64,000 nt of DNA, taken from sequence record PZ534534.1; one strand, given 5' to 3'. Made by a program: the position numbers and the translations under genes. The notes beneath the pieces were generated by a model, which saw only the letters and a program-made list of their open reading frames with translations, searched no databases and was not told the DNA's origin. This document shows positions 3,086 through 63,142 of this stretch, piece by piece (within the stretch, counting starts at the first letter, position 1; each line of letters opens with the position of its first letter). Source of the stretch: a phage.

Positions 3086-3484
3086 ATGATTTCAGTTTTA
3101 ACATGGCTGAGTAGGTATAAAGGGATCATAAAAGGTTTAGTTTTTGCAGCTGCGATAGGTACAGCTTATCTTGGGGCCGTGTATTGGTTTAACTCCAAGC
3201 TTAATGATGCCTACCAGGAGGGTGTGTCAGCAACAGAGTTAAAGTGGGAACGGATCCTTGATCAGCAACAAAAGCAGGCCGACAAGATTAAAATGGGCCA
3301 CGCAGAGGAGGTTAAAAACCTTGAAAAATCTCTTTCTGATCTGCAGGATAAATTAAATATAGCTGAGAGGGCAGGTAAAGAAAAGCAGATTATTTACCTC
3401 CAATCACCTGAGGGTAAGAAGTCAACACTCCCTGATCAGCTTATAGATATTTATAATGAGAGTATTAATCAGGAGGGTCGATGA
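3086..3484 (+). CDS. inner-membrane spanin (i-spanin, Rz-like)
   Basis: N-terminal TM helix (GLVFAAAIGTAYLGAVYWF) followed by charged coiled-coil region; overlaps the lipoprotein gene by 4 nt. Confidence 0.65.
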   Translation: MISVLTWLSRYKGIIKGLVFAAAIGTAYLGAVYWFNSKLNDAYQEGVSATELKWERILDQQQKQADKIKMGHAEEVKNLEKSLSDLQDKLNIAERAGKEKQIIYLQSPEGKKSTLPDQLIDIYNESINQEGR

Positions 3485-3768
3485 GAGTTGCTGCACTGTT
3501 TATTGTGTGCTTGTTATTATGTGGGTGTGCAACCAGCGTTGAGAGAGAATACAAGATTGACCCTCCTGATGTAGGAAGGTTGATTGTTAAACCCCCGGAA
3601 GGTGCCATGAAACCACCTGCTAAAGCTATGCCTTTGAAGAAAGGTGCGCCAGATGCAGTGAATTCTGGCATTATGAGGGATAATAATCTGTCTTGTAGCA
3701 ATGATAGAGCTAAATTGATCATTTTGCAAGACTATATTAGAACACTGTTTCCAAAGGAGAGAGGTTAA
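3481..3768 (+). CDS. outer-membrane lipoprotein spanin (o-spanin, Rz1-like)
   Basis: Signal peptide with lipobox-like LLLCGC, Pro-rich 95-aa product; classic spanin gene pair arrangement. Confidence 0.65.
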   Translation: MRVAALFIVCLLLCGCATSVEREYKIDPPDVGRLIVKPPEGAMKPPAKAMPLKKGAPDAVNSGIMRDNNLSCSNDRAKLIILQDYIRTLFPKERG

Positions 3769-4193: not shown

Positions 4194-5076
4194 TAATTTG
4201 TAGCTCTCGTAAAACCTCCCTAATTGCGGGGAAATCTTTATTATTGACACCACCAACCTGTCATGGTAACATGATAGAGGCTTCGAAGAGAGATCGAAGG
4301 TATGGTAACAGTGTGTTAATTTAGATAATCCGCAGCGAAGCATCCGAGAGGATGAACGTTCAACGACTAGTCGAAAGACGTAGAATCAAGCGATTCGAAA
4401 CGGGAGGGTGAATGTGTAATACTAAAAAATGTATGGATTGCCAAAGAGTTCTACCTATTGATGATTTCTTTTTATCATCTAAGAGCAAGGATGGATACTC
4501 AGGTACATGCAAGGAATGCTATATGTACTACAGGAAGGGTGGATCTCGTAAAAACAAAAATATGGTTAAGAGAGATGACGCAGCATTGTTTATTCAAGAC
4601 TTGCTGAAGAAAGGTGAACTTTTTGAATGCAAATCTTGTCATGAAAGTATGCTCGCTGATAGTTTTTACACAAAACGTGACTATGGTAAAGTATATCTGG
4701 TTACGAACAGGTGTAAGATGTGTGAAAAGTTTTATCAGATTGAGAAGAAATTTCACATAACAAAAGATGAATACTATCGTCTACTCTCAGATCAAGATCA
4801 TAAGTGTGCCATTTGTAGAATATCCCTTGATGAGTATAGGACGCAAGGGTATAGAGATTTCTTTTGTGTTGATCATGACCATAAAACTGGTGCTGTAAGA
4901 GGGTTGCTTTGTGATAAATGCAACAGAGCTTTAGGTTTCTTCCAAGAGGATGAGGAAACTATTCTTAGAGCGGCAGAGTATTTACACATTCATAAGATAT
5001 AGTCTGGTCTGCATGGAGACATGCAGCTGCCTGAAAATGGCGGGGCAAGACTAGCGACCTTGCCCGAACATAAACG
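4194..5076 (+). mobile_element. group I intron 1 (td-like) in terminase gene, carrying an HNH endonuclease ORF
   Basis: Begins TAATTT after exon-terminal U; 3' core CTGCATGGAGACATGCAGCTG...GGCGGGGCAAGACTAGCGACCTTGCCCGAACATAAACG closely parallels the T4 td intron core as recalled from memory; exon reading frames are restored across it. Confidence 0.7.
4412..5002 (+). CDS. intron-encoded homing endonuclease, endonuclease VII-like HNH zinc-finger type
   Basis: Motif CAIC...VDHDHKTGAVRGLLCDKCNRALG matches the recombination endonuclease VII / HNH pattern; several CxxC pairs; own RBS GGGAGGG. Confidence 0.8.
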   Translation: MCNTKKCMDCQRVLPIDDFFLSSKSKDGYSGTCKECYMYYRKGGSRKNKNMVKRDDAALFIQDLLKKGELFECKSCHESMLADSFYTKRDYGKVYLVTNRCKMCEKFYQIEKKFHITKDEYYRLLSDQDHKCAICRISLDEYRTQGYRDFFCVDHDHKTGAVRGLLCDKCNRALGFFQEDEETILRAAEYLHIHKI

Positions 5077-38787: not shown

Positions 38788-40859
38788 TGGCAACAGCTAT
38801 TTTTAAACCTTACCGTGATTACTCTACAATGGCTGCACGGTTTCATTACCGCACAGTTCAGGATACTGCCGTTCCTGGTAGGGATTATAATCATGTTGAG
38901 GGTGATGTAACTATCCCAATTGGGGCAACCAGTATTGAGATCCCAGTGGAAATTGTTGACAAATTACCCAACAGGTTGCCAAGAAGCTTCTTTATGGAGT
39001 TTTCATCAAAATCTCAAGGGGTGATGATTGGAACACAAAGGGCGAAATGTACAATAGTTTCAGATGAGAATCTTGACAGGATATCTTGGGATACTGTTGA
39101 GGAGAGAATGTTTCACCCAAGGTATTGGGTTACAACTACTCAGCAGACTGAAAGTACCTGTATTGTTGCAGATAACAACTGTTGTATTAACCGTTTAGTG
39201 TCAAGAACATATGGAGGTATGGCTGGGTGCATTTGGGAAACAGTTGACAAGTATGACCATTTCGGTATTGGGTTTGATGATCACTATGAGATGAGAAACA
39301 CCAAGCTTTGGTTCAGAATGTCAATAACCAATGCCAGCAACTTCTCCACCCCTGAAAAGATGATTATGACTGTAGACCTTGTTGATGGCACAATCATCTA
39401 TGTTCCTTTAGCTCAATATGCTGTCAGCATCTCAGAGGATAAGAATGTTGCAGAGATTCATATTGATTTCGAGGACTGCGTCGGGATGGATCAGAACAAC
39501 AACATGATGGGTGTTGATCCTCGACAGGTGAGAAGGATTTTAATACCGCTTATGCCTAAAGACTGGGTAAGTAATAGCACAGACCCGAGAACGGAAAATG
39601 TAGAGTGTGAGTTGCGCCTAGATCTGCTCCAGCCAGACACAGGCTGGAAAATGATGCAACTTAACAATATTCAGGTTAAAGAGCACGACGTTGGGATCTG
39701 CACCGCATATGACGATATGTGGAACGTATCTCCTTTAAGGGTGTTGAACAATATCAAGCGTCTGGGCTATACCGGAACCATAAACCATTATGTTGGTATG
39801 AGTCATTATTATGACTACACATGGTCAGGAACCCAATGGTCTATAAACAGAACAGGGGCGCTAAACGCTGCAGCTTATAAATGGCATGATGATTTTATGT
39901 ACAATGCCAAACGACATAACTTCGACGTTATGCAATCTGTAAGTTTTGAGCTTTTCAGCGATGCCTGCCCGTTGGAATGGACCCAAAGAGACTGGAACGA
40001 TAACTACGCTAAAACAGGGTATACACCCTGTAGCTACCTCCTGTCTCCAACCATTGAAGAGGGTATGAATTTCCTTACTGCAGTATTTAAGAATTTTGCA
40101 TCAGCCGCTATGAGAAACAACCTGCCAGTGATTATGCAGGTTGGTGAACCGTGGTGGTGGTACAATACCGATACTCGTAGACCTTGTATTTATGATTACC
40201 CTACAAAGCAGGCGTTTTATGATGAGACAGGTGAGTATGCATTAGATATTGGGACTATTGACGATCCTAAAACTGGCGGTGTTTACGACAAGTATGTAGC
40301 ATTTTGTCGTGGTAAGCTTGGCGCTCGTATTGCGGCCATTTCAAAGGCAATAAAGGCACACGCTGCATCAGCTCAGATGACAGCTCTGCTGTTTTTCCCA
40401 ACCATTATGGAAACAGAGCTTACGCAAAAGCTGAACCTTGCTGACCAATATAAAAAAGAAGCAGGTGCTCTTGATTTCTTCTGCACCGAGTGCTACGATT
40501 GGGTGATGCAGGGAGGTATTGAAAAGGCAAAAGAGTCTGTAAACATACCTATCGTTAAGTTAGGTTGGCAACCGTCTGAAATACAATACCTTGCAGGGTT
40601 CGTTCCTAGTAAAGAGCTTGCTCCGGTATATGGCTACGACCCAACCAGGAATTACCAAGAATTTTTATGGAGATGTATCTGCGGAAACATGGCAACCATA
40701 GAGTATAGATACCCTGAGGTAAAACAGTATGTGTGGGCATACCCGCAAGTAATGTCTGACAGCATCACTGTTACAGCCAGAGATTCTACCGTGCTTCATA
40801 TGGGGCAGGTTGCTCTGAAAGGGTATGTAGAAGATGTTGTCCCTCCAGACTTCTCATAA
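38787..40859 (+). CDS. tail fibre/spike protein with N-terminal Calx-beta-like domain and putative glycosidase-like C-terminal domain
   Basis: N-terminal pattern DYNHVEGDVTIPIGATSIEIPVEIVDKLPN resembles Calx-beta; Trp-rich C-terminal region (QVGEPWWWYNTD). Confidence 0.4.
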   Translation: MATAIFKPYRDYSTMAARFHYRTVQDTAVPGRDYNHVEGDVTIPIGATSIEIPVEIVDKLPNRLPRSFFMEFSSKSQGVMIGTQRAKCTIVSDENLDRISWDTVEERMFHPRYWVTTTQQTESTCIVADNNCCINRLVSRTYGGMAGCIWETVDKYDHFGIGFDDHYEMRNTKLWFRMSITNASNFSTPEKMIMTVDLVDGTIIYVPLAQYAVSISEDKNVAEIHIDFEDCVGMDQNNNMMGVDPRQVRRILIPLMPKDWVSNSTDPRTENVECELRLDLLQPDTGWKMMQLNNIQVKEHDVGICTAYDDMWNVSPLRVLNNIKRLGYTGTINHYVGMSHYYDYTWSGTQWSINRTGALNAAAYKWHDDFMYNAKRHNFDVMQSVSFELFSDACPLEWTQRDWNDNYAKTGYTPCSYLLSPTIEEGMNFLTAVFKNFASAAMRNNLPVIMQVGEPWWWYNTDTRRPCIYDYPTKQAFYDETGEYALDIGTIDDPKTGGVYDKYVAFCRGKLGARIAAISKAIKAHAASAQMTALLFFPTIMETELTQKLNLADQYKKEAGALDFFCTECYDWVMQGGIEKAKESVNIPIVKLGWQPSEIQYLAGFVPSKELAPVYGYDPTRNYQEFLWRCICGNMATIEYRYPEVKQYVWAYPQVMSDSITVTARDSTVLHMGQVALKGYVEDVVPPDFS

Positions 40860-40871
40860 TCAGGAGATAAA

Positions 40872-41912
40872 ATGTCAAAACCTAGTTTTCCATTAGAGAT
40901 TTGGGCAGAGGAGGATCAGGTTCTGCCTAACACCCACAGACAGAACAGGCTACGCCCGATTGATGATTTGTGGAGAAAAGGTTGGGATCTTGGTCAAAAG
41001 CCATCCTGTGAAGAACTTAACTATATTTTCAATATGCTCGGAACTTGGGCAAAATACATTGCTGACGAGCAGATCCCCGCTCAAGAAGGCCGTTATCTGG
41101 TACGTGATAATAACTTGAGCGATCTTTTGAACATCCCTGTTGCCCGTAGAAACCTTGGGATTATCACTAAGGAAGAGGCAGACGCCAGGTATGTAAAAGT
41201 TACAGGTGATACAATGACAGGCCCCTTGGGGTTGCAACGTATCAACTTTAAAGCTGCCGAGACAGATAAGGCTTGGATAGAGACAACTATTGGCCCAGAT
41301 AAGACAACTCTCGACTTTGGGTTAAGTGATAATACCGGGTCGTTTGATGATGGTGGTACATCTACAGTAGATGCGTTTCGTTGGAGATTCCAGCCAACTC
41401 AGCCGGATATTAATCCAGAGTTCACTTTGATGTACCTTAACGCGATCACGGCTAATCGTGCGCTGTTGAAAGTGGTAGGCAATGTTGAAGTTGTCGATAA
41501 CATGAGGTGCAATAACCTTACTATCAGCAATACAGCAACATTCACCAACTGTAATGTGGCTAGTCAGTTGACGGCTGGGTCAGTATATGTTAATGGTGGT
41601 GCAAGTTGTGACAGTATGGTTGTAAGAAGCCAGCACTGTGTTGTCGGTAACAGAAATGTGGTGCGCTCCGTGAATGGAGTGACGGCTAACGGTAACGGTG
41701 ATGTAACGATCACTATCCCGCAGACAGGTGTGCAAGACATCAGAATCGGTGCAAGACTTGTGGACGGCGTTTCTGAATCTCCAATCCGCAACGGCTACGT
41801 TGTCACAGGCTGGCATTTCGGTGACAAAAAAGAGATGCGTGGTTCAACCTACTGGGCAGGACCTTTACAAAAACTTGTAAATGGTCAATGGATCACTGTT
41901 AATTATGCATAG
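40872..41912 (+). CDS. tail fibre protein (paralogue A)
   Basis: 346 aa; paralogous to 42927..43970 (same N-terminal PLEIWA.EDQVL and C-terminal QKLVNGQWIT..YA ends); followed by a Tfa chaperone gene. Confidence 0.6.
   Translation: MSKPSFPLEIWAEEDQVLPNTHRQNRLRPIDDLWRKGWDLGQKPSCEELNYIFNMLGTWAKYIADEQIPAQEGRYLVRDNNLSDLLNIPVARRNLGIITKEEADARYVKVTGDTMTGPLGLQRINFKAAETDKAWIETTIGPDKTTLDFGLSDNTGSFDDGGTSTVDAFRWRFQPTQPDINPEFTLMYLNAITANRALLKVVGNVEVVDNMRCNNLTISNTATFTNCNVASQLTAGSVYVNGGASCDSMVVRSQHCVVGNRNVVRSVNGVTANGNGDVTITIPQTGVQDIRIGARLVDGVSESPIRNGYVVTGWHFGDKKEMRGSTYWAGPLQKLVNGQWITVNYA
41868..41897 (+). repeat. 30-bp direct repeat copy 1 (3' end of fibre paralogue A)
   Basis: CAAAAACTTGTAAATGGTCAATGGATCACT identical to 43926..43955. 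Confidence 0.9.
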
Positions 41913-41926
41913 ATCGGAGGACTAGC

Positions 41927-42511
41927 ATGAAAATACTTCAAGAGTTTAAACTTTACCAACCGGGATCTGGCGAATACTACTCCAACAAGGAAACCAAGGA
42001 GCTGACCCCTCAAGAGGTCGAGGATTACACCGCATACACTGGGTATTTTTTACGTAATGATGATGGTGATTGGTATGTGCAGTCACGAACATTACGACAA
42101 GAAAATCCAGGGTGTATCTTCCTACTTGTTGACGAGAAGGGAATTCTTAAGACATCTACAGAAGAACCTGATGCCTTATGGCCTGCTCCAGGTCTTCGTG
42201 TGGTTATCGCCAAAAAAGAAGAGGTACCAGAAAACATTATGCTTCACCACGACGCTTTGCGTTTAGTTGGTGATGAATTTGTCACAGACAATGAATTCTT
42301 TGTTCAACAGGCAGAGGGTGTCATAGAGACAGAACTTGCTTGGGCTACTGCTAGAATTGGTGCCTATCAAGACATGATTGACCTTGAATATGATCTTACT
42401 GATGACCAGAAACGTAACATCAGAGATTTGAAAATGTACAGGGTAAAACTTCTTGAAATAGATACATCTAAAGCCCCTGACATTTTCTTCCCGGAGCGAC
42501 CTACCCTCTAA
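41927..42511 (+). CDS. tail fibre assembly protein (Tfa chaperone)
   Basis: C-terminal block DQKRNIRDLKMYRVKLLEIDTSKAPDIFFPERP matches the conserved Tfa C-terminal signature (W..YR..L..vD.s.AP.I.WP..P). Confidence 0.7.
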   Translation: MKILQEFKLYQPGSGEYYSNKETKELTPQEVEDYTAYTGYFLRNDDGDWYVQSRTLRQENPGCIFLLVDEKGILKTSTEEPDALWPAPGLRVVIAKKEEVPENIMLHHDALRLVGDEFVTDNEFFVQQAEGVIETELAWATARIGAYQDMIDLEYDLTDDQKRNIRDLKMYRVKLLEIDTSKAPDIFFPERPTL

Positions 42512-42522
42512 GAGGAGGTGTT

Positions 42523-42837
42523 GTGGAGTTGGATTTGGCGGCATTGTACGGTATCTGCATGGGTACCGTTGTCCCGATCTGTGTATGGGCTTTCAACCAG
42601 TGGCACACCAAATGGAAAGGCATTTCCAAGAGGTTGGATGAGCTGGAGAAAGACCTCATCTTAGTGAAAAACAGTATGGTTACAAAAGATAGACTTGATT
42701 CCGTTATCGAGACTCGGTTAAGCAAGCTAGAGGCCGATATTAACGACCTTAAGCAGGATGTCAGGACAGATGTCTCCGGCATCCGAGCTGATGTACAAAA
42801 GATTTTGCACATGCTCGTAGAGCATAGTAAAAGGTAA
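42523..42837 (+). CDS. small membrane protein (single TM helix plus coiled coil) embedded in the fibre locus
   Basis: GTG start with AAGAGGAGG RBS; TM segment LAALYGICMGTVVPICVWAF; own terminator downstream. Confidence 0.5.
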   Translation: MELDLAALYGICMGTVVPICVWAFNQWHTKWKGISKRLDELEKDLILVKNSMVTKDRLDSVIETRLSKLEADINDLKQDVRTDVSGIRADVQKILHMLVEHSKR

Positions 42838-42846
42838 ACAAAGGTC

Positions 42847-42880
42847 AGAACGGAAAGGACTCCGTTCTTGCATTTTGTTC
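42847..42880 (+). terminator. rho-independent terminator
   Basis: Hairpin AGAACGGAaaggacTCCGTTCT followed by TGCATTTTGTTC. Confidence 0.55.
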
Positions 42881-42896
42881 TCTAAAGTGTTAAAAT
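42868..42896 (+). promoter_or_regulatory. sigma70-like promoter (TTGCAT-17-TAAAAT) for the second fibre cassette
   Basis: Hexamers with 17-nt spacer; overlaps the terminator tail. Confidence 0.45.
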
Positions 42897-42926
42897 AGTC
42901 CTAAGGAATTTTCTCAGGAGAACGTG

Positions 42927-43970
42927 ATGACTAAACCAGTTATCCCTCTTGATATTTGGGCCAATCAGGATGTTGTGCTTGAAAATACGGGAGAGTTGAA
43001 TAAATCTCAACCAAAAAAAGAAGAGAGATTGAAAGGTTGGGATATGACACAAAGAATGGCATGTGAAGTTGTTAACTTTGAACTTCACATGCTTTCTGCG
43101 TGGTTGAAGCATTTAACAGAAGATGTTGTCCCAGGATGGGATAATAGATTCTTAAGGGTCACTAATAATCTAGCAGACGTTCCAGACAAAGCTGCTGCAC
43201 GTCAAGTTCTCAATGTATACTCACCTGAAGAAATGGACGATCTATATGTTGACAAGTCTGGAGACATAATGACTCAGACTCAAACTTTAGGTCTTCAAAG
43301 AATCGAGTTTGCATCTGCGTCAACAGACAGTGCGGCAATATATACCACCATAACTCCAGACAAGACGACGATGGATTTCTGGATTATGGACAACATCGGT
43401 GGTGCTGACGGCACAGACCTTGATGATCCTTCTCACCAAATAGATGGGTTCCGTTGGAGATTTCAACCTTCTGGTGGGCAGCCTGTGTTTTCAGCTATGA
43501 AGCTCAATGCTATAACTGCCAACCGTGCAAGACTGGCTATCCAAGGAAATCTTGAATGCAACGATGCAAAAAGTTCCTCTGCAAATGCCAATGCGGTCAC
43601 GATACCAAGAGCCACTGTTAATGGACAACAATCCTGCGGAAGCGCTCAAATAGGTGGAAGAGTTGATTGTAACGATGAAACCGTCAGGGGCCAATATGCA
43701 ACAGTTGGTGGAAGAAACGTGGTCCGCAGGGTAAATGGTAACGGCGCAGACAGTAGCGGTAACCTTACTATCCCTATGCCTAGCAGAGGGGTTGATGATG
43801 TAAGGATAGCAAACCGTTTTAAAACCACCTACAGAGAGTCAAGAGTCTACCCTGGACATGTGATGTGCTCTGGTAACTACGCTTATAAACACCCTTATCA
43901 AGGTGATTACTGGACAGGTGCTATCCAAAAACTTGTAAATGGTCAATGGATCACTATATCTTATGCTTAA
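42927..43970 (+). CDS. tail fibre protein (paralogue B)
   Basis: 348 aa; ATG at 42927 with AGGAGAA RBS; paralogous to 40872..41912. Confidence 0.6.
   Translation: MTKPVIPLDIWANQDVVLENTGELNKSQPKKEERLKGWDMTQRMACEVVNFELHMLSAWLKHLTEDVVPGWDNRFLRVTNNLADVPDKAAARQVLNVYSPEEMDDLYVDKSGDIMTQTQTLGLQRIEFASASTDSAAIYTTITPDKTTMDFWIMDNIGGADGTDLDDPSHQIDGFRWRFQPSGGQPVFSAMKLNAITANRARLAIQGNLECNDAKSSSANANAVTIPRATVNGQQSCGSAQIGGRVDCNDETVRGQYATVGGRNVVRRVNGNGADSSGNLTIPMPSRGVDDVRIANRFKTTYRESRVYPGHVMCSGNYAYKHPYQGDYWTGAIQKLVNGQWITISYA
43926..43955 (+). repeat. 30-bp direct repeat copy 2 (3' end of fibre paralogue B)
   Basis: Identical to 41868..41897. Confidence 0.9.
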
Positions 43971-43981
43971 AAAGAGGGTAA

Positions 43982-44248
43982 ATGAAACTAACTCAGTTTT
44001 TATGGGGACTGGTTGCGGCATCTGATGACCCTACGAAAGTGTCCCAATCTAAGCTATGGTCGAACATAGGCATGGCGGTGATGACTGGGGGGTTTATTCA
44101 TATGGGGGATAATGATACGCTTCCTGAATGGTATGCGTGGATATACGCGCCTTCAGTAGCTTGCCCCCAGCTTATTAGCAAATTCATCTCGCTCCGGTGG
44201 GGTTGCCAGCACCCTGACCACGTTAAAAACGAAGAGCAAAAAGCTTAA
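43982..44248 (+). CDS. hypothetical small protein downstream of fibre paralogue B
   Basis: 88 aa with hydrophobic N-terminal segment; occupies the position where a fibre chaperone would be expected but lacks the Tfa signature. Confidence 0.35.
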   Translation: MKLTQFLWGLVAASDDPTKVSQSKLWSNIGMAVMTGGFIHMGDNDTLPEWYAWIYAPSVACPQLISKFISLRWGCQHPDHVKNEEQKA

Positions 44249-44257
44249 GGAGAAATC

Positions 44258-46003
44258 ATGGCGCAAGACATGACAAGCTTTGAGCAGGCGGTAGATCAAG
44301 TAATTGTTGATTCTGAACGTTTGCACCTGATTGTCAACGGTAACGCTGTGGATGAAGTTGTCGTAGAGGATGGGACCACCATCCCTACGGTACGAAAAGC
44401 CATGCTTGACACCCTTTATTTTAAAACGCCACCGATCCCTTGGGCGTATGGTGCATCCACAACAGTTTTTAACCAGCTGTACGAGTTTAAAGGGGACACA
44501 GGCCCTCAGTGGTGGTACGCTCCCGCAGCATCAAAATCTAACCCGGTTAGAATGCCAGCAGATCCTTCACAATCTCCAAACTGGAGATTATATACCGATT
44601 CTGCAGTAATGGCAAAATACTACGCAAAACTTAACAGTCCGAGGTTCGAAGGTGACCCGCGAGTACCTACGCCTCCAATGGACGACAAATCCGAGTCTAT
44701 AGCAAACACAGAGTTTGTTGTTGACTATGTGGATAGCATATTTGAAGCCATGGAGGGAATGAAAGTTACTGTAGGATCTTTGGTGGTAAAAGGTCTTACA
44801 GAACTTGCTAACACTATAGTTGGTGGCACACTCACCTTACATGGGCCTGTTAATGGAGCAGATTCTACTGCACGCTTCAGGAACCTAATCCTCACGGCAA
44901 ATACTTCTACACTTACTTTTGCGTGGAGTGATCCTAAGCATGCAGACTGGAGAAGCACAGAGCTGCAACCTCATGAAGTGTCCACCCACAGGGTTATAGC
45001 TGACACTATAACTTCTGGGAAACCAGTGGCTAATAATAACGATGTGCATTTTGATGGTCTAGGTAATAACTTTTTTGACTACGTGTACATTCGTGGTAAT
45101 GCCATGAAGGCAGCAACCGAACCGACATTGCAGGTAGATGGAACCACCAGGGTTAAGAACCTTGAGGTGACAGGCACTGTTACAGGGATAACCTACTCTG
45201 TCGATGGCACCATGATTTACCCTAGCTATATTGAAAGCACGGGGGACGCATTAATAAATGGTGATTTAGAAGTTGGCGGATCTGTAGTTATTCGAGGTAC
45301 AGCCTCTATCCAAAACATAGCTCTGAATACCCTAAGAGTCAATGAGCGTGCAACTTTTGAAGGGGAAGGGCTTACAGCCAACAAAGGTGTAATTACCGAG
45401 CTGACAACCACTACTTTAACTGCAACAACTGCAAACTCTGAAAACTGCAACGTTACCAGAAACTTGCAGGTAAATGGAGATGTTAGTTTAAACGCAGCAG
45501 GGACGGGCACCACCTACCTTCACAACCTTGAAATATCCGGCACAGTGACTGGGTGGCTGCCAGACTTCTCTAATGTCAACTTTGTTTGTAATGGCATTAA
45601 CTCCAGTGGCAAGATAACCACCTCTCAAGAAATTGAGGCGGGTAAAACCATTACTGCCCCTACTTTCCACGCAGGAAAGGTAGATTTTGATTTAGAGGAG
45701 GTTGACGCGTCCAGTGGGACATGGACACCTAACGGGCAGGCCAGTATGTATGTTGTCCACGCGAAAGGGGATTTTACAATAGGACAATGGCCTGGTACAT
45801 CAGCGGAAGATAAACCTTATCCATTCACTGCGGTTATCTATGTCATTCAGGATGCTGTAGGTCACAACGTGACTTTGCACGATAAGTATGCTATCCTGTC
45901 GGCAACGCCTGTTATTAATAACAAGGCTAATAGTGTTACCTTGCTGCAATTAACATATTGTGGTGTTGGTGATATCGTAGACGTAGTAATTGCACAACGT
46001 TAA
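44258..46003 (+). CDS. tail fibre/tailspike protein
   Basis: 581 aa, Thr/Gly/Asn-rich beta-rich sequence with repeated ...TG.V.G... segments typical of fibre shafts. Confidence 0.5.
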   Translation: MAQDMTSFEQAVDQVIVDSERLHLIVNGNAVDEVVVEDGTTIPTVRKAMLDTLYFKTPPIPWAYGASTTVFNQLYEFKGDTGPQWWYAPAASKSNPVRMPADPSQSPNWRLYTDSAVMAKYYAKLNSPRFEGDPRVPTPPMDDKSESIANTEFVVDYVDSIFEAMEGMKVTVGSLVVKGLTELANTIVGGTLTLHGPVNGADSTARFRNLILTANTSTLTFAWSDPKHADWRSTELQPHEVSTHRVIADTITSGKPVANNNDVHFDGLGNNFFDYVYIRGNAMKAATEPTLQVDGTTRVKNLEVTGTVTGITYSVDGTMIYPSYIESTGDALINGDLEVGGSVVIRGTASIQNIALNTLRVNERATFEGEGLTANKGVITELTTTTLTATTANSENCNVTRNLQVNGDVSLNAAGTGTTYLHNLEISGTVTGWLPDFSNVNFVCNGINSSGKITTSQEIEAGKTITAPTFHAGKVDFDLEEVDASSGTWTPNGQASMYVVHAKGDFTIGQWPGTSAEDKPYPFTAVIYVIQDAVGHNVTLHDKYAILSATPVINNKANSVTLLQLTYCGVGDIVDVVIAQR

Positions 46004-46012
46004 TATATATCT

Positions 46013-46040
46013 AACCGCTCCTGACGGGGCGGTTTTCTTA
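46013..46040 (+). terminator. putative terminator
   Basis: Hairpin AACCGCtcctgacgggGCGGTT followed by TTCTTATCT. Confidence 0.4.
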
Positions 46041-62641: not shown

Positions 62642-63142
62642 GTGAAAATTAAGATCTTTGCTATTATTTTGAGCGCACTTTTATCGCTGCCTGTTGTTGC
62701 AGCACCAAAACAAAAAGTATATCATACTTGCAAGCCATCAGATACTAAGGAAAACATTCTGGCATGCAATATCTACAGGGAAGCTAGAGGAGATGGCACG
62801 ATGGGTATGCTGGCATCTGGGTTTGCCACACTAAACAGGAAATCCCACCCTAAATACCCAGACACTATAAGAAAGATTGTCTACCAACCTAACCAGTTTT
62901 CGTGGACAAACCACGGCAAAACTTTTAAGGTGACAGAAAAAGATTCATGGGATCACGCTAAAAGTCTTGCAAAGATGCTTCTAAAGGTCTATAATAACAA
63001 CCATGTTGCATACATGGCTATGGACATAACAGGTGGAGCAACACACTACCATACAACCAAAGTACGACCGAAATGGGCAAAAAAGATGCAGAGGACAGCT
63101 CAATTCGGGAGCCATATCTACTACAAGGAGCGCAATAAATGA
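62642..63142 (+). CDS. secreted cell-wall hydrolase, SleB-like (putative endolysin)
   Basis: N-terminal signal peptide (MKIKIFAIILSALLSLPVVAAP); block CNIYREARGDG...ATLNRKSHPKYPDTIRKIVYQPNQFSW matches the SleB-type cell-wall hydrolase signature. Confidence 0.65.
   Translation: MKIKIFAIILSALLSLPVVAAPKQKVYHTCKPSDTKENILACNIYREARGDGTMGMLASGFATLNRKSHPKYPDTIRKIVYQPNQFSWTNHGKTFKVTEKDSWDHAKSLAKMLLKVYNNNHVAYMAMDITGGATHYHTTKVRPKWAKKMQRTAQFGSHIYYKERNK

What the first reader, a model, noticed from the sequence alone, without database searches (positions are those of the whole stretch)
42523..42837. Small membrane protein gene inserted between the two fibre cassettes
A 104-aa protein with one N-terminal TM helix and a long charged coiled coil has a very strong RBS and its own hairpin terminator, in the middle of the fibre locus. 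No holin was found beside the spanin genes or the SleB-like hydrolase, so this is a holin or lysis-regulator candidate; alternatively it could be a superinfection-exclusion factor.
Basis: inference. Interest (0 to 1): 0.5.

Follow-up and report, generated by a model that had tools for sequence, protein, structure and literature searches.

The report
Conserved membrane-anchored coiled-coil gene after fibre
This is a real, already annotated but uncharacterised gene of rV5-like coliphages encoding a small inner-membrane protein with a coiled-coil tail; it always follows the short-tail-fibre gene, and there is no evidence yet that it is the phage's missing holin.

Summary
The ORF at 42523-42837 (+) is real. 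The window is a Vequintavirus (rV5-like myophage, 99.9% identical to phage DrSchubert) and the gene is rV5 gene 31, listed in 2013 as "membrane protein, 1 TMD". It has a perfect AGGAGGT Shine-Dalgarno, a GTG start confirmed by homology, and a downstream hairpin with an interrupted T-tract.

It belongs to a narrow family (phrog_5345 plus phrog_15210, including phi92 gp149). About 120 clusters are known, all from ~120-155 kb myophages. The gene always lies directly after the short tail fibre gene, or after its Caudo_TAP chaperone where one exists. It was not inserted between two fibre cassettes. Vequintavirus instead put a second fibre paralog into the slot that five sister lineages fill with a polytopic membrane gene.

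All 88 aligned members lack K/R before the hydrophobic segment, which predicts N-out/C-in topology. The best-conserved part, LEK...(V/A)TK, matches the beta-layer motif of trimeric alpha/beta coiled coils.

No holin, spanin, releasin (DUF2730), chaperone or defence family is matched. The protein is absent from published virion protein lists.

Function is undetermined. My best guess (0.4) is a membrane-tethered assembly factor of the short-fibre module. A lysis regulator (about 0.3), architecturally like the Mu gp25 releasin, is not excluded.

The parts
42510..42519 (+). Shine-Dalgarno AAGAGGAGGT. It overlaps the TAA stop (42509-42511) of the upstream chaperone gene.
   Evidence: sequence read directly
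42523..42837 (+). CDS with GTG start, 104 aa. It is rV5 gene 31 and DrSchubert bas50_0037, family phrog_5345.
42535..42594 (+). Codons 5-24, the N-terminal hydrophobic (predicted transmembrane) segment. It is preceded by the acidic tail MELD and followed by K30, K32, K36 and R37.
   Evidence: hydropathy; 0 K/R in the N-flank of all 88 family members
42643..42696 (+). Codons 41-58, LEKDLILVKNSMVTKDRL, the best-conserved block of the family. One heptad is followed by a (V/A)-T-K beta-layer-like motif. The AF2 helix break falls at residues 53-57.
42847..42880 (+). An 8-bp GC-containing hairpin (42847-42868) followed by an interrupted T-tract. It is a weak terminator-like element found only in Vequintavirus.
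40872..41912 (+). Context: short tail fibre paralog 1 (346 aa, phrog_4465).
41927..42511 (+). Context: Caudo_TAP tail fibre assembly chaperone (194 aa). It ends 11 nt before the 104-aa gene.
42924..43970 (+). Context: short tail fibre paralog 2 (348 aa; annotated start is the ATG at 42927). It occupies the slot that holds a 130-157-aa polytopic membrane gene in the other Vequintavirinae lineages examined.
43982..44248 (+). Context: 88-aa membrane protein (phrog_1322). It is the third gene of the ancestral three-gene membrane cluster.

Best explanation
The gene encodes a late-expressed, non-virion, single-pass inner-membrane protein. Four acidic residues (MELD) face the periplasm. A ~75-residue helical domain faces the cytoplasm and probably forms a parallel trimeric alpha/beta coiled coil with one beta-layer at MVTKD.

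It is the conserved last gene of the unit 'short tail fibre - (Caudo_TAP chaperone) - X'. I propose that it is a membrane-tethered morphogenetic accessory of that unit. In this model it docks or templates the trimeric short tail fibre, or the fibre-chaperone complex or baseplate periphery, at the cytoplasmic face of the inner membrane. It is then left behind when the particle matures. T4 gp40, which helps portal assembly at the membrane, works in a comparable way.

Shown: the ORF, its family, its gene order, the charge bias, the motif, and its absence from published virion lists.

Inferred: the topology, the trimeric state, late co-expression with the fibre genes, and the whole functional step.
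For: (1) Fixed gene order.
- In five other Vequintavirinae lineages the gene directly follows STF-TAP: SSE121/4MG/PVP-SE1, CR8, KpS8, Av-05 and ChuuTotoro.
- The same holds in phi92-like and phAPEC8-like phages.
- In phi92 relatives that lack a TAP gene it sits directly after the fibre gene, i.e. in the chaperone slot.
- This adjacency survives rearrangements that moved the 88-aa membrane gene and inserted other fibre genes.

(2) Tight coupling. In SSE121 the TAP, the 104-aa gene and the next gene overlap by 1 and 4 nt. In L013 the gene overlaps the next fibre gene by 1 nt. In the window the gap from the TAP gene is 11 nt.

(3) Evolutionary rate. It evolves at the rate of the fibre and chaperone rather than the baseplate. 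Window versus SSE121: 31% identity, against TAP 34%, STF 45% and wedge 60%.

(4) Beta-layer motif.
- The most conserved columns are L41-E42-K43 and T54-K55.
- The family profile's best PDB matches are the MATKDD beta-layer constructs 5apx/5apw (E 0.001-0.003), aligned in heptad register.
- The published consensus is [aliphatic]-A-T-K-[polar]-[DE], all solved examples are trimers, and the motif is common in phage fibres.
- The a-to-a spacing across the motif is 13 residues in both subfamilies.
- Core positions are dominated by Ile.
- The AF2 helix break is at residues 53-57.

(5) Cytoplasmic orientation. All 88 members have 0 K/R and 1-3 D/E before the hydrophobic segment, and 2-3 K/R just after it.

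(6) Not a virion protein.
- It is absent from the 26 proteins in the CB7 virion MS list, where CB7_31 and CB7_36 flank the missing 32-35.
- It is absent from the phi92 cryo-EM component list.
- It has no MS evidence in rV5.
- No PDB chain matches it, although phiTE virion entries are present.
Against: - I know of no membrane-anchored tail fibre assembly factor, so the role of the anchor is unexplained.
- Conserved adjacency to fibre genes does not prove a fibre function. The T4 holin gene t sits next to gene 38, and the T7 holin gene 17.5 sits next to gene 17 (my own knowledge).
- The second fibre paralog in the window has no partner of its own.
- The family shows no sequence relationship to the fibre shaft (hhalign prob 20% over 12 columns) or to any chaperone family.
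- The trimer and beta-layer reading rests on a short motif and a low-confidence monomer model (pLDDT 63.6). A simple helix-turn-helix hairpin fits equally well.
- Small membrane proteins are easily missed by virion mass spectrometry and by cryo-EM.
Confidence: 0.4

Rival explanations
1. Lysis-timing factor. In this reading the protein is a membrane-tethered cytoplasmic regulator: an antiholin, a holin partner, or a Mu-gp25-like 'releasin'. It would act with the neighbouring small membrane proteins, namely the 88-aa 2-TMD protein and, in sister genera, the overlapping 4-TMD protein. Alternatively it would act on the signal-bearing SleB-like hydrolase.
For: - The architecture is the same as the Mu gp25 releasin. 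That protein is 99 aa, N-out/C-in, has 4 periplasmic residues starting M-D, carries a 73-aa cytoplasmic helical domain with a break about 25 residues after the TMD, and is a late gene.
- The holin of rV5-like phages is not positively identified.
- Lysis genes are scattered. The endolysin lies among replication genes and the spanins lie beside the terminase. Location therefore does not exclude a lysis role.
- In the other Vequintavirinae lineages examined the gene heads a cluster of three small membrane genes, overlapping the second by 4 nt in four of the five.
- The SleB-like hydrolase at 62642-63142 starts MKIKIFAIILSALLSLPVVAAPK. That is a basic N-terminus followed by a hydrophobic stretch.
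Against: - No homology to DUF2730. hhalign of the two family profiles gives prob 5%, and PF10805 was not among the Pfam matches.
- DUF2730 genes lie within 5 genes of the endolysin. This gene never does.
- The main endolysin is a soluble lysozyme without a SAR domain, so no releasin is needed for it.
- In phi92-like phages and their relatives the gene is separated from the 88-aa membrane gene.
- The cytoplasmic domain is conserved in a fibre-like beta-layer motif.
Confidence: 0.2
2. The holin itself. In this reading it is a single-TMD, hole-forming protein that releases the soluble endolysin.
For: - It is small, has one TMD, has a hydrophilic charged C-terminal part and sits in the late operon.
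- The endolysin is soluble and so needs a canonical holin.
- No confirmed holin exists in the lineage.
- Holin genes next to fibre genes occur in T4 and T7 (my own knowledge).
Against: - No holin family is hit.
- The hydrophobic segment is short and poorly conserved in the phi92-type subfamily: ~13 uncharged residues, with a KD17 mean of 1.88 and a minimum of 1.4. The soluble domain is nearly invariant there.
- The C-terminus is not basic. The rV5 table gives pI 7.3.
- There are better-looking 2-TMD candidates: rV5 gp129, bas50_0114 and the 88-aa protein at 43982-44248.
Confidence: 0.1
3. Superinfection-exclusion or host-takeover membrane protein, encoded next to the receptor-binding genes as T5 llp or the cor genes are.
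For: - It lies beside receptor-binding protein genes.
- It is a membrane protein and is not in the virion.
- PHROGs files the neighbouring 88-aa family under 'moron/host takeover'.
Against: - It is embedded in, and translationally packed into, the late structural operon.
- It is conserved at a fixed position across two subfamilies of strictly lytic phages, rather than being sporadic.
- It has no lipobox or signal peptide.
- Its predicted soluble domain is cytoplasmic, away from receptors.
- There are no PADLOC hits.
Confidence: 0.1
4. Minor virion component. In this reading it is a small fibritin-like trimeric whisker whose hydrophobic N-terminus is buried in the baseplate rather than in a membrane.
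For: - The trimeric beta-layer motif is typical of fibres.
- The hydrophobic segment is marginal as a TMD in the phi92-type subfamily.
- Some GenBank records label the gene 'tail fiber protein' or 'putative structural protein'.
Against: - It was not detected by CB7 virion MS.
- It is not assigned in the phi92 model and matches no deposited PDB chain, phiTE entries included.
- It has no MS evidence in rV5.
- The 'tail fiber' labels look like propagated annotations made from gene position.
Confidence: 0.05

Closest known systems
Phage Mu gp25 'releasin' (DUF2730, PF10805)
   Same: - About 100 aa.
- Predicted N-out/C-in single TMD with only about 4 periplasmic residues, starting M-(x)-D.
- Basic residues at the cytoplasmic boundary.
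- A ~73-78-aa helical cytoplasmic domain with a break about 25 residues after the TMD.
- Late gene and not a virion protein.
   Different: - No detectable homology (hhalign prob 5%; PF10805 not among the Pfam matches).
- Mu gp25 lies within the lysis cassette and acts on a SAR endolysin. Here the endolysin is soluble and lies about 90 kb away in the linear DrSchubert record.
- Mu gp25 has a Pro-Gly loop where this family has the (V/A)TK motif.
Alpha/beta coiled coils with beta-layers (Tcar0761/DUF3782, DUF1640/MCUR1-type membrane proteins; Hartmann et al. 2016)
   Same: - The motif [M/Y]-[V/A]-T-K-x-[D/E/x]-[L/I] fits the consensus [aliphatic]-A-T-K-[polar]-[DE].
- It is preceded by a heptad in register, with hexad-type spacing.
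- The DUF1640 proteins are also membrane-anchored stalks.
   Different: - Only one motif copy is present.
- The anchor is N-terminal rather than C-terminal.
- There is no significant whole-protein match to those Pfam families.
- The oligomeric state has not been tested.
Two-component spanin inner-membrane subunit (Rz-like i-spanin)
   Same: - N-terminal TMD followed by a coiled coil of similar length.
- Members of the phi92-type subfamily hit PHROG 'Rz-like spanin' families weakly (phrog_739, E 2.4e-5 and 5.4e-4).
   Different: - The charge bias is opposite. The window's real i-spanin has R10, K12 and K16 before its TMD, whereas this family has none.
- There is no o-spanin lipoprotein partner gene.
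- The phage already has a spanin pair at 3086-3768.
- hhalign against that i-spanin gives prob 0.6%.
Holins found next to fibre genes (T4 T, T7 gp17.5)
   Same: A small late membrane protein encoded beside tail fibre or adhesin genes (my own knowledge).
   Different: - No sequence or family relationship.
- T4 T is N-in, with a large globular periplasmic domain.
- No lethality or triggering data exist for this protein.
Tail fibre assembly chaperones encoded downstream of fibre genes (Caudo_TAP such as Mu U and lambda Tfa; T4 gp38 and gp57A; V22 gp27)
   Same: - Encoded directly after the fibre gene and absent from the virion.
- It takes the chaperone slot in phi92 relatives that lack a TAP gene.
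- T4 gp57A is also a small all-helical oligomer (my own knowledge).
   Different: - It has a membrane anchor.
- It coexists with a bona fide Caudo_TAP in most genomes.
- It shows no homology to any chaperone family.
T4 gp40 (membrane-bound head-vertex/portal assembly factor)
   Same: A small phage membrane protein that assists assembly at the inner membrane and is not in the virion (my own knowledge). This is only a functional precedent for the proposed mechanism.
   Different: It acts on the portal rather than on fibres, and no sequence comparison was made here.

Membership tests
Holin (any class) | At least one transmembrane domain in a small protein | tested here: met
   The hydrophobic segment spans residues 5-24, KD19 1.91. 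rV5 Table S3 lists '1 TMD'. The segment is marginal in the phi92-type subfamily.
Holin (any class) | Match to a described holin family (Pfam, PHROGs or NCBIfam) | tested here: not met
   Searches gave only sub-threshold coiled-coil matches. XhlA reached E 0.012 over 20 residues.
Holin (any class) | Genetic linkage to endolysin or spanin genes | tested here: not met
   The spanins are at window 3086-3768. The endolysin is outside the window, among replication genes. The gene is never adjacent to either in the related genomes examined.
Holin (any class) | Lethal, energy-poison-triggerable hole formation that releases endolysin | not testable with these tools
   Needs inducible expression and complementation of a holin-defective phage.
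Releasin / DUF2730 (Mu gp25) | Sequence membership in PF10805 | tested here: not met
   PF10805 was not among the Pfam matches. hhalign of A3 against the DUF2730 alignment A4 gave prob 5.4%.
Releasin / DUF2730 (Mu gp25) | N-terminal TMD with N-out/C-in topology and a cytoplasmic C-terminal domain | tested here: met
   By the positive-inside rule: 0 K/R in the N-flank and 2-3 K/R just after the segment, in all 88 members. This is a prediction only.
Releasin / DUF2730 (Mu gp25) | [quoted passage not shown] | tested here: not met
   The endolysin bas50_0209 is soluble and distant. A SleB-like hydrolase with a signal-like N-terminus exists at 62642-63142, but it is about 20 kb away.
i-spanin (Rz-like) | N-in/C-out TMD with a periplasmic coiled coil | tested here: not met
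   The charge bias predicts the opposite orientation. The window's own i-spanin shows the expected basic N-terminus.
i-spanin (Rz-like) | Cognate o-spanin lipoprotein gene embedded, overlapping or adjacent | tested here: not met
   The next gene is a fibre gene or a 4-TMD protein without a lipobox.
Beta-layer alpha/beta coiled coil | Motif [aliphatic]-A-T-K-[polar]-[DE] in hexad or nonad spacing between heptad segments | tested here: met
   The motif reads M-V-T-K-D-R (window) and Y-A-T-K-A-E (phi92 type). T54 and K55 are near-invariant. The a-to-a spacing is 13 residues, L45 to L58. AF2 shows a helix break at 53-57.
Beta-layer alpha/beta coiled coil | Parallel trimer | not testable with these tools
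   Only a monomer model was possible. Ile-rich core positions are suggestive.
Caudo_TAP tail fibre assembly protein | PF02413 domain | tested here: not met
   PF02413 is found in the upstream gene 41927-42511 (E 1e-11) but not in this protein.
Receptor-blocking exclusion lipoproteins (T5 Llp or Cor type) | Lipoprotein signal peptide with a lipobox Cys | tested here: not met
   The sequence has no signal peptide or lipobox. The phi92-type homologs labelled 'lipoprotein' contain no lipobox either.
Virion structural protein | Detected in purified particles | tested here: not met
   From the literature and PDB only: the CB7 MS list, the phi92 model, the rV5 table and PDB sequence searches.

The most novel reading that the evidence does not exclude
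The protein is the first example of a membrane-anchored tail-fibre morphogenesis factor. In this reading it is a trimeric alpha/beta coiled coil tethered to the cytoplasmic face of the inner membrane. It would template, dock or hold trimeric short tail fibres, or the baseplate periphery, during assembly. That would tie myophage tail assembly to the membrane in the way T4 gp40 ties portal assembly to it.
Probability: 0.25. Interest if true: 0.6.

Novelty: new variant of a known kind. Interest (0 to 1): 0.35.

Why it matters
rV5-like, phi92-like and PVP-SE1-like phages are among the most frequently isolated therapeutic and biocontrol coliphages. Two basic parts of their biology remain open: which gene is the holin, and how their multi-fibre 'Swiss army knife' baseplate is assembled.

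This gene is one of only a few small membrane proteins conserved across the whole lineage, and it sits in the late operon. If it times lysis, it fills the missing part of the lysis pathway. If it helps fibre assembly, it adds a membrane-tethered class of morphogenetic factor.

Either outcome is directly testable in the BASEL phages or in EdH4 with existing knockdown tools. As it stands, it is a conserved hypothetical protein with a clearer structural description than before. It is not a discovery of a new system.

Tried and rejected
- **Holin, lysis and defence family searches.** Pfam, PHROGs, NCBIfam and PADLOC were run on the protein, and Pfam on all 88 aligned members. Only sub-threshold coiled-coil noise came back: XhlA, EzrA, DUF1664, apolipoproteins, JetC.
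- **Partial duplicate of the short-fibre shaft.** hhalign against the CR8 fibre gave prob 20% over 12 columns. Rejected.
- **Relationship to the phage's own i-spanin.** hhalign prob 0.6%. Rejected.
- **Homology to Mu gp25/DUF2730.** Prob 2% with the single sequence and 5% profile against profile. Rejected as homology and kept as an architectural analogy.
- **Structure.**
  - The AF2 monomer with an 88-sequence alignment was low confidence (pLDDT 63.6, pTM 0.30).
  - Foldseek against the PDB gave no match.
  - A multimer prediction was not possible.
- **Exhaustive HMMER search of 1.84 billion representatives.** Only 12 hits, several of them coiled-coil noise. There is therefore no distant relative in a different, informative genomic context.
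- **The search for related loci with the family alignment.** It failed because no stretch was conserved enough.
- **Search for the missing 4-TMD gene (phrog_7451) elsewhere in the window.** None found.
- **Literature.**
  - No functional, knockdown or transcript data exist for this gene.
  - The genome-wide CRISPRi-ART screens covered T4, T5, SUSP1 and PTXU04, not an rV5-like phage.
  - The PVP-SE1 and phi92 genome papers are not held.
  - The phiTE MS table is not held.

Full report
**What the window is**

Region 40800-44300 is 99.9% identical to Escherichia phage DrSchubert. It is at least 90% identical to 117 phage records, nearly all Vequintavirus (rV5-like myophages). The finding's ORF is DrSchubert bas50_0037, 'hypothetical protein'. 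It is also rV5 gene 31. The rV5 paper's Table S3 already lists that gene as 'membrane protein, 104 aa / 11,948 Da / pI 7.3, 1 TMD', without mass-spectrometry evidence.

**Checking the observation**

- The ORF runs 42523-42837 on the + strand and starts with GTG.
- The stop codon of the upstream Caudo_TAP chaperone gene (41927-42511; PF02413, E 1e-11) lies inside AAGAGGAGGT. This gives a perfect AGGAGGT Shine-Dalgarno 3 nt before the GTG.
- The start is confirmed by homology. The N-terminus M-x-(L/I/V)-D is kept throughout the Vequintavirinae-type subfamily.
- Residues 5-24 are hydrophobic, with a KD 19-mer mean of 1.91.
- The rest is charged and helical. AF2 gives helices 3-52 and 58-103 at pLDDT 63.6. 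It shows a 3-4 hydrophobic repeat, and Certrevirus carries an exact 7-residue insertion, which is typical of coiled coils.
- Downstream, an 8-bp hairpin at 42847-42868 is followed by TGCATTTTGTT. The spacer folds better than shuffles (z = -2.7), but the T-tract is interrupted. I call it a weak terminator-like element.

**The family**

- The protein matches phrog_5345 ('unknown function') over its full length, E 1.5e-48. It reaches no Pfam family above threshold.
- tblastn finds it in 224 phage records. About 117 are Vequintavirus at over 95% identity. About 107 are at 22-33% identity in Seunavirus, Certrevirus, Mydovirus, Avunavirus and unclassified Vequintavirinae.
- A profile search recovers 123 clusters. 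These include a second subfamily, phrog_15210, which contains phi92 gp149 and phAPEC8 gp089. That subfamily is mis-labelled 'lipoprotein' although it has no lipobox.
- An exhaustive HMMER scan of 1.84 billion representative proteins gave only 12 hits.
- The family is thus confined to this lineage of ~120-155 kb myophages.

**Gene order**

- In SSE121, 4MG, PVP-SE1, CR8, KpS8, Av-05 and ChuuTotoro the order is: short tail fibre (STF), Caudo_TAP, this gene, a 130-157-aa polytopic membrane gene, an 85-89-aa membrane gene, then the next fibre.
- In most of these genomes the first three junctions overlap or lie a few nucleotides apart. In SSE121 the overlaps are 1 nt and 4 nt.
- Only Vequintavirus has a second STF paralog (window 42924-43970) in place of the polytopic gene. 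The window holds no homolog of that gene.
- The gene was therefore not 'inserted between two fibre cassettes'. The second fibre gene was inserted behind it.
- In phi92-like and phAPEC8-like phages the homolog again follows STF-TAP, while the 85-aa membrane gene sits elsewhere, in front of the wedge gene.
- In phi92 relatives that lack a TAP gene, the homolog follows the STF gene directly, in the usual chaperone slot.
- The invariant unit is STF-(TAP)-X.

**What the protein looks like**

- In all 88 aligned members the segment before the hydrophobic stretch has no Lys or Arg and 1-3 Asp/Glu. Two or three Lys/Arg follow the stretch immediately.
- By the positive-inside rule this predicts N-out/C-in topology, with about four residues in the periplasm and the coiled coil in the cytoplasm.
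- The same phage's i-spanin (3086-3484) has R10, K12 and K16 before its TMD, the opposite arrangement.
- In the phi92-type subfamily the uncharged hydrophobic run is only about 13 residues, so the anchor there is marginal.
- Conservation peaks in the soluble part, not the anchor. L41-E42-K43 and T54-K55 are nearly invariant across both subfamilies.
- The family profile's best PDB matches are the GCN4-MATKDD constructs 5apx/5apw/5apz and 6h9l (E 0.001-0.02). The heptad before the motif aligns in register.
- These constructs come from Hartmann et al. 2016. That paper defined the beta-layer, with consensus [aliphatic]-A-T-K-[polar]-[DE]. All solved examples are trimeric, and the motif is frequent in phage fibres and in DUF1640 membrane stalks.
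- The window motif MVTKDR and the phi92-type motif YATKAE fit this consensus.
- The a-to-a spacing across the motif is 13 residues, which is hexad-type. Core positions are Ile-rich. The AF2 helix break falls exactly at 53-57.
- I read this as a probable parallel trimeric alpha/beta coiled coil. A plain helical hairpin is not excluded.

**What it is not**

- There is no significant relationship to the fibre shaft or to the phage's i-spanin.
- There is no significant relationship to holin, chaperone or defence families.
- It matches no solved structure, by sequence or by fold.
- It is absent from the 26-protein virion proteome of Certrevirus CB7, where the flanking CB7_31 and CB7_36 were detected.
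- It is absent from the component list of the phi92 cryo-EM model.
- It matches no PDB chain, although phiTE virion entries are present. The window's STF N-terminus matches chain 9cuy_c at E 1e-19.

**Lysis context**

- The rV5 paper proposed gp129 as the holin. The BASEL annotation proposes bas50_0114. Both lie outside the window.
- The endolysin is a soluble lysozyme located among replication genes.
- The spanins sit beside the terminase.
- A SleB-like hydrolase at 62642-63142 carries its own signal-like N-terminus.
A late membrane protein is a legitimate candidate.
- The closest functional precedent for this exact architecture is the Mu gp25 'releasin'. It is 99 aa, N-out/C-in, has four periplasmic residues and a 73-aa cytoplasmic domain, and is a late gene.
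- Profile-profile comparison with DUF2730 gives only 5% probability.
- DUF2730 genes also lie within five genes of the endolysin and act on SAR endolysins. Neither holds here.

**Weighing the explanations**

- The most specific evidence is the invariant linkage to the STF/TAP genes across rearrangements.
- Supporting that are the translational packing with those genes, the TAP-like evolutionary rate, the fibre-like trimer motif and the cytoplasmic orientation.
- I therefore favour a non-virion, membrane-tethered accessory of short-fibre or baseplate assembly (0.4).
- This is inference. No such factor is known for fibres. T4 gp40 for the portal is the nearest precedent, from my own knowledge. 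The T4 t and T7 17.5 genes show that a holin gene can sit stably beside fibre genes.
- The rivals are a lysis regulator (0.2), the holin proper (0.1), superinfection exclusion (0.1) and a minor virion protein (0.05).

**Novelty and interest**

The gene is already annotated in more than 200 genomes as a hypothetical or membrane protein.

This analysis adds:
- the union of phrog_5345 with phrog_15210;
- the corrected evolutionary reading of the locus;
- the uniform N-out/C-in charge signature;
- the beta-layer motif;
- the exclusion of spanin, releasin and holin family membership.

It is a conserved phage membrane protein of undetermined function. Interest is moderate (0.35), because it bears on two open questions in a widely used phage group and is easily testable.

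Noticed in passing
window 42924-43970 (compare L003 4312-4785, L004 4336-4794): The second short-tail-fibre paralog of Vequintavirus sits exactly where the other Vequintavirinae lineages examined encode a 130-157-aa polytopic membrane protein (phrog_7451 in SSE121; described with 4 TM in PVP-SE1). In four of the five lineages that gene overlaps the 104-aa gene by 4 nt. The window has no homolog of it. This looks like gene replacement at a fixed slot.
   Followed up: partly
window 43982-44248: This 88-aa membrane protein (phrog_1322) has two hydrophobic segments and a charged C-terminus (KNEEQKA). It is as conserved as the baseplate wedge protein (61% identity to SSE121, against 60% for the wedge) and occurs in 359 phage records. 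In phi92-like phages it sits just before the wedge gene instead. It looks more like a class II holin than the 104-aa protein does. It matches no Pfam family.
   Followed up: partly
window 62642-63142: The SleB-like cell-wall hydrolase (TIGR02869, E 1e-12) begins MKIKIFAIILSALLSLPVVAAPK. That is a Sec-signal-like or SAR-like N-terminus, so it could reach the periplasm without a holin. By homology to DrSchubert, rIIA and rIIB follow it. The phage therefore has two muralytic enzymes of different export type.
   Followed up: partly
window 3086-3484 and 3481-3768: The i-spanin and o-spanin pair overlap by 4 nt and lie immediately upstream of the terminase large-subunit gene. That gene is interrupted, with an HNH-like ORF at 4412-5002. 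The upstream neighbour (2621-2980) is not a membrane protein.
   Followed up: partly
phage database hits: Sixteen GenBank records named 'Campylobacter phage' with host Campylobacter jejuni (for example MG065655) match this 3.5-kb E. coli rV5-like region at over 90% identity (MG065655: 99.3%). These are probably mislabelled or contaminant genomes.
   Followed up: no
L015, L016 (P0124): A 10.5-kb contig (MN856106.1) carries myovirus baseplate, fibre and sheath-initiator genes, yet its protein is named 'MAG: hypothetical protein [Cystoviridae sp.]'. That is evidently a taxonomic misassignment of a dsDNA phage fragment.
   Followed up: no
L008 8433-8774, L009 8441-8776: The phi92 gp149 and phAPEC8 gp089 homologs are annotated 'lipoprotein', as is phrog_15210, but they contain no lipobox cysteine. 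Some Vequintavirus records label the 104-aa gene 'tail fiber protein' or 'large surface anchored protein'. All of these look like propagated mis-annotations.
   Followed up: yes
window 46013-46034: A much stronger terminator-like hairpin follows the 581-aa fibre gene and precedes the 1875-aa fibre gene. It has 9 bp, 6 of them GC, and is followed by TTCTTATCTG.
   Followed up: no
L004 4001-4339 and alignment A2 columns ~74-80: Certrevirus-type homologs carry an insertion of exactly seven residues (one heptad) after the conserved K-x-K. This is consistent with selection to keep the coiled-coil register.
   Followed up: yes
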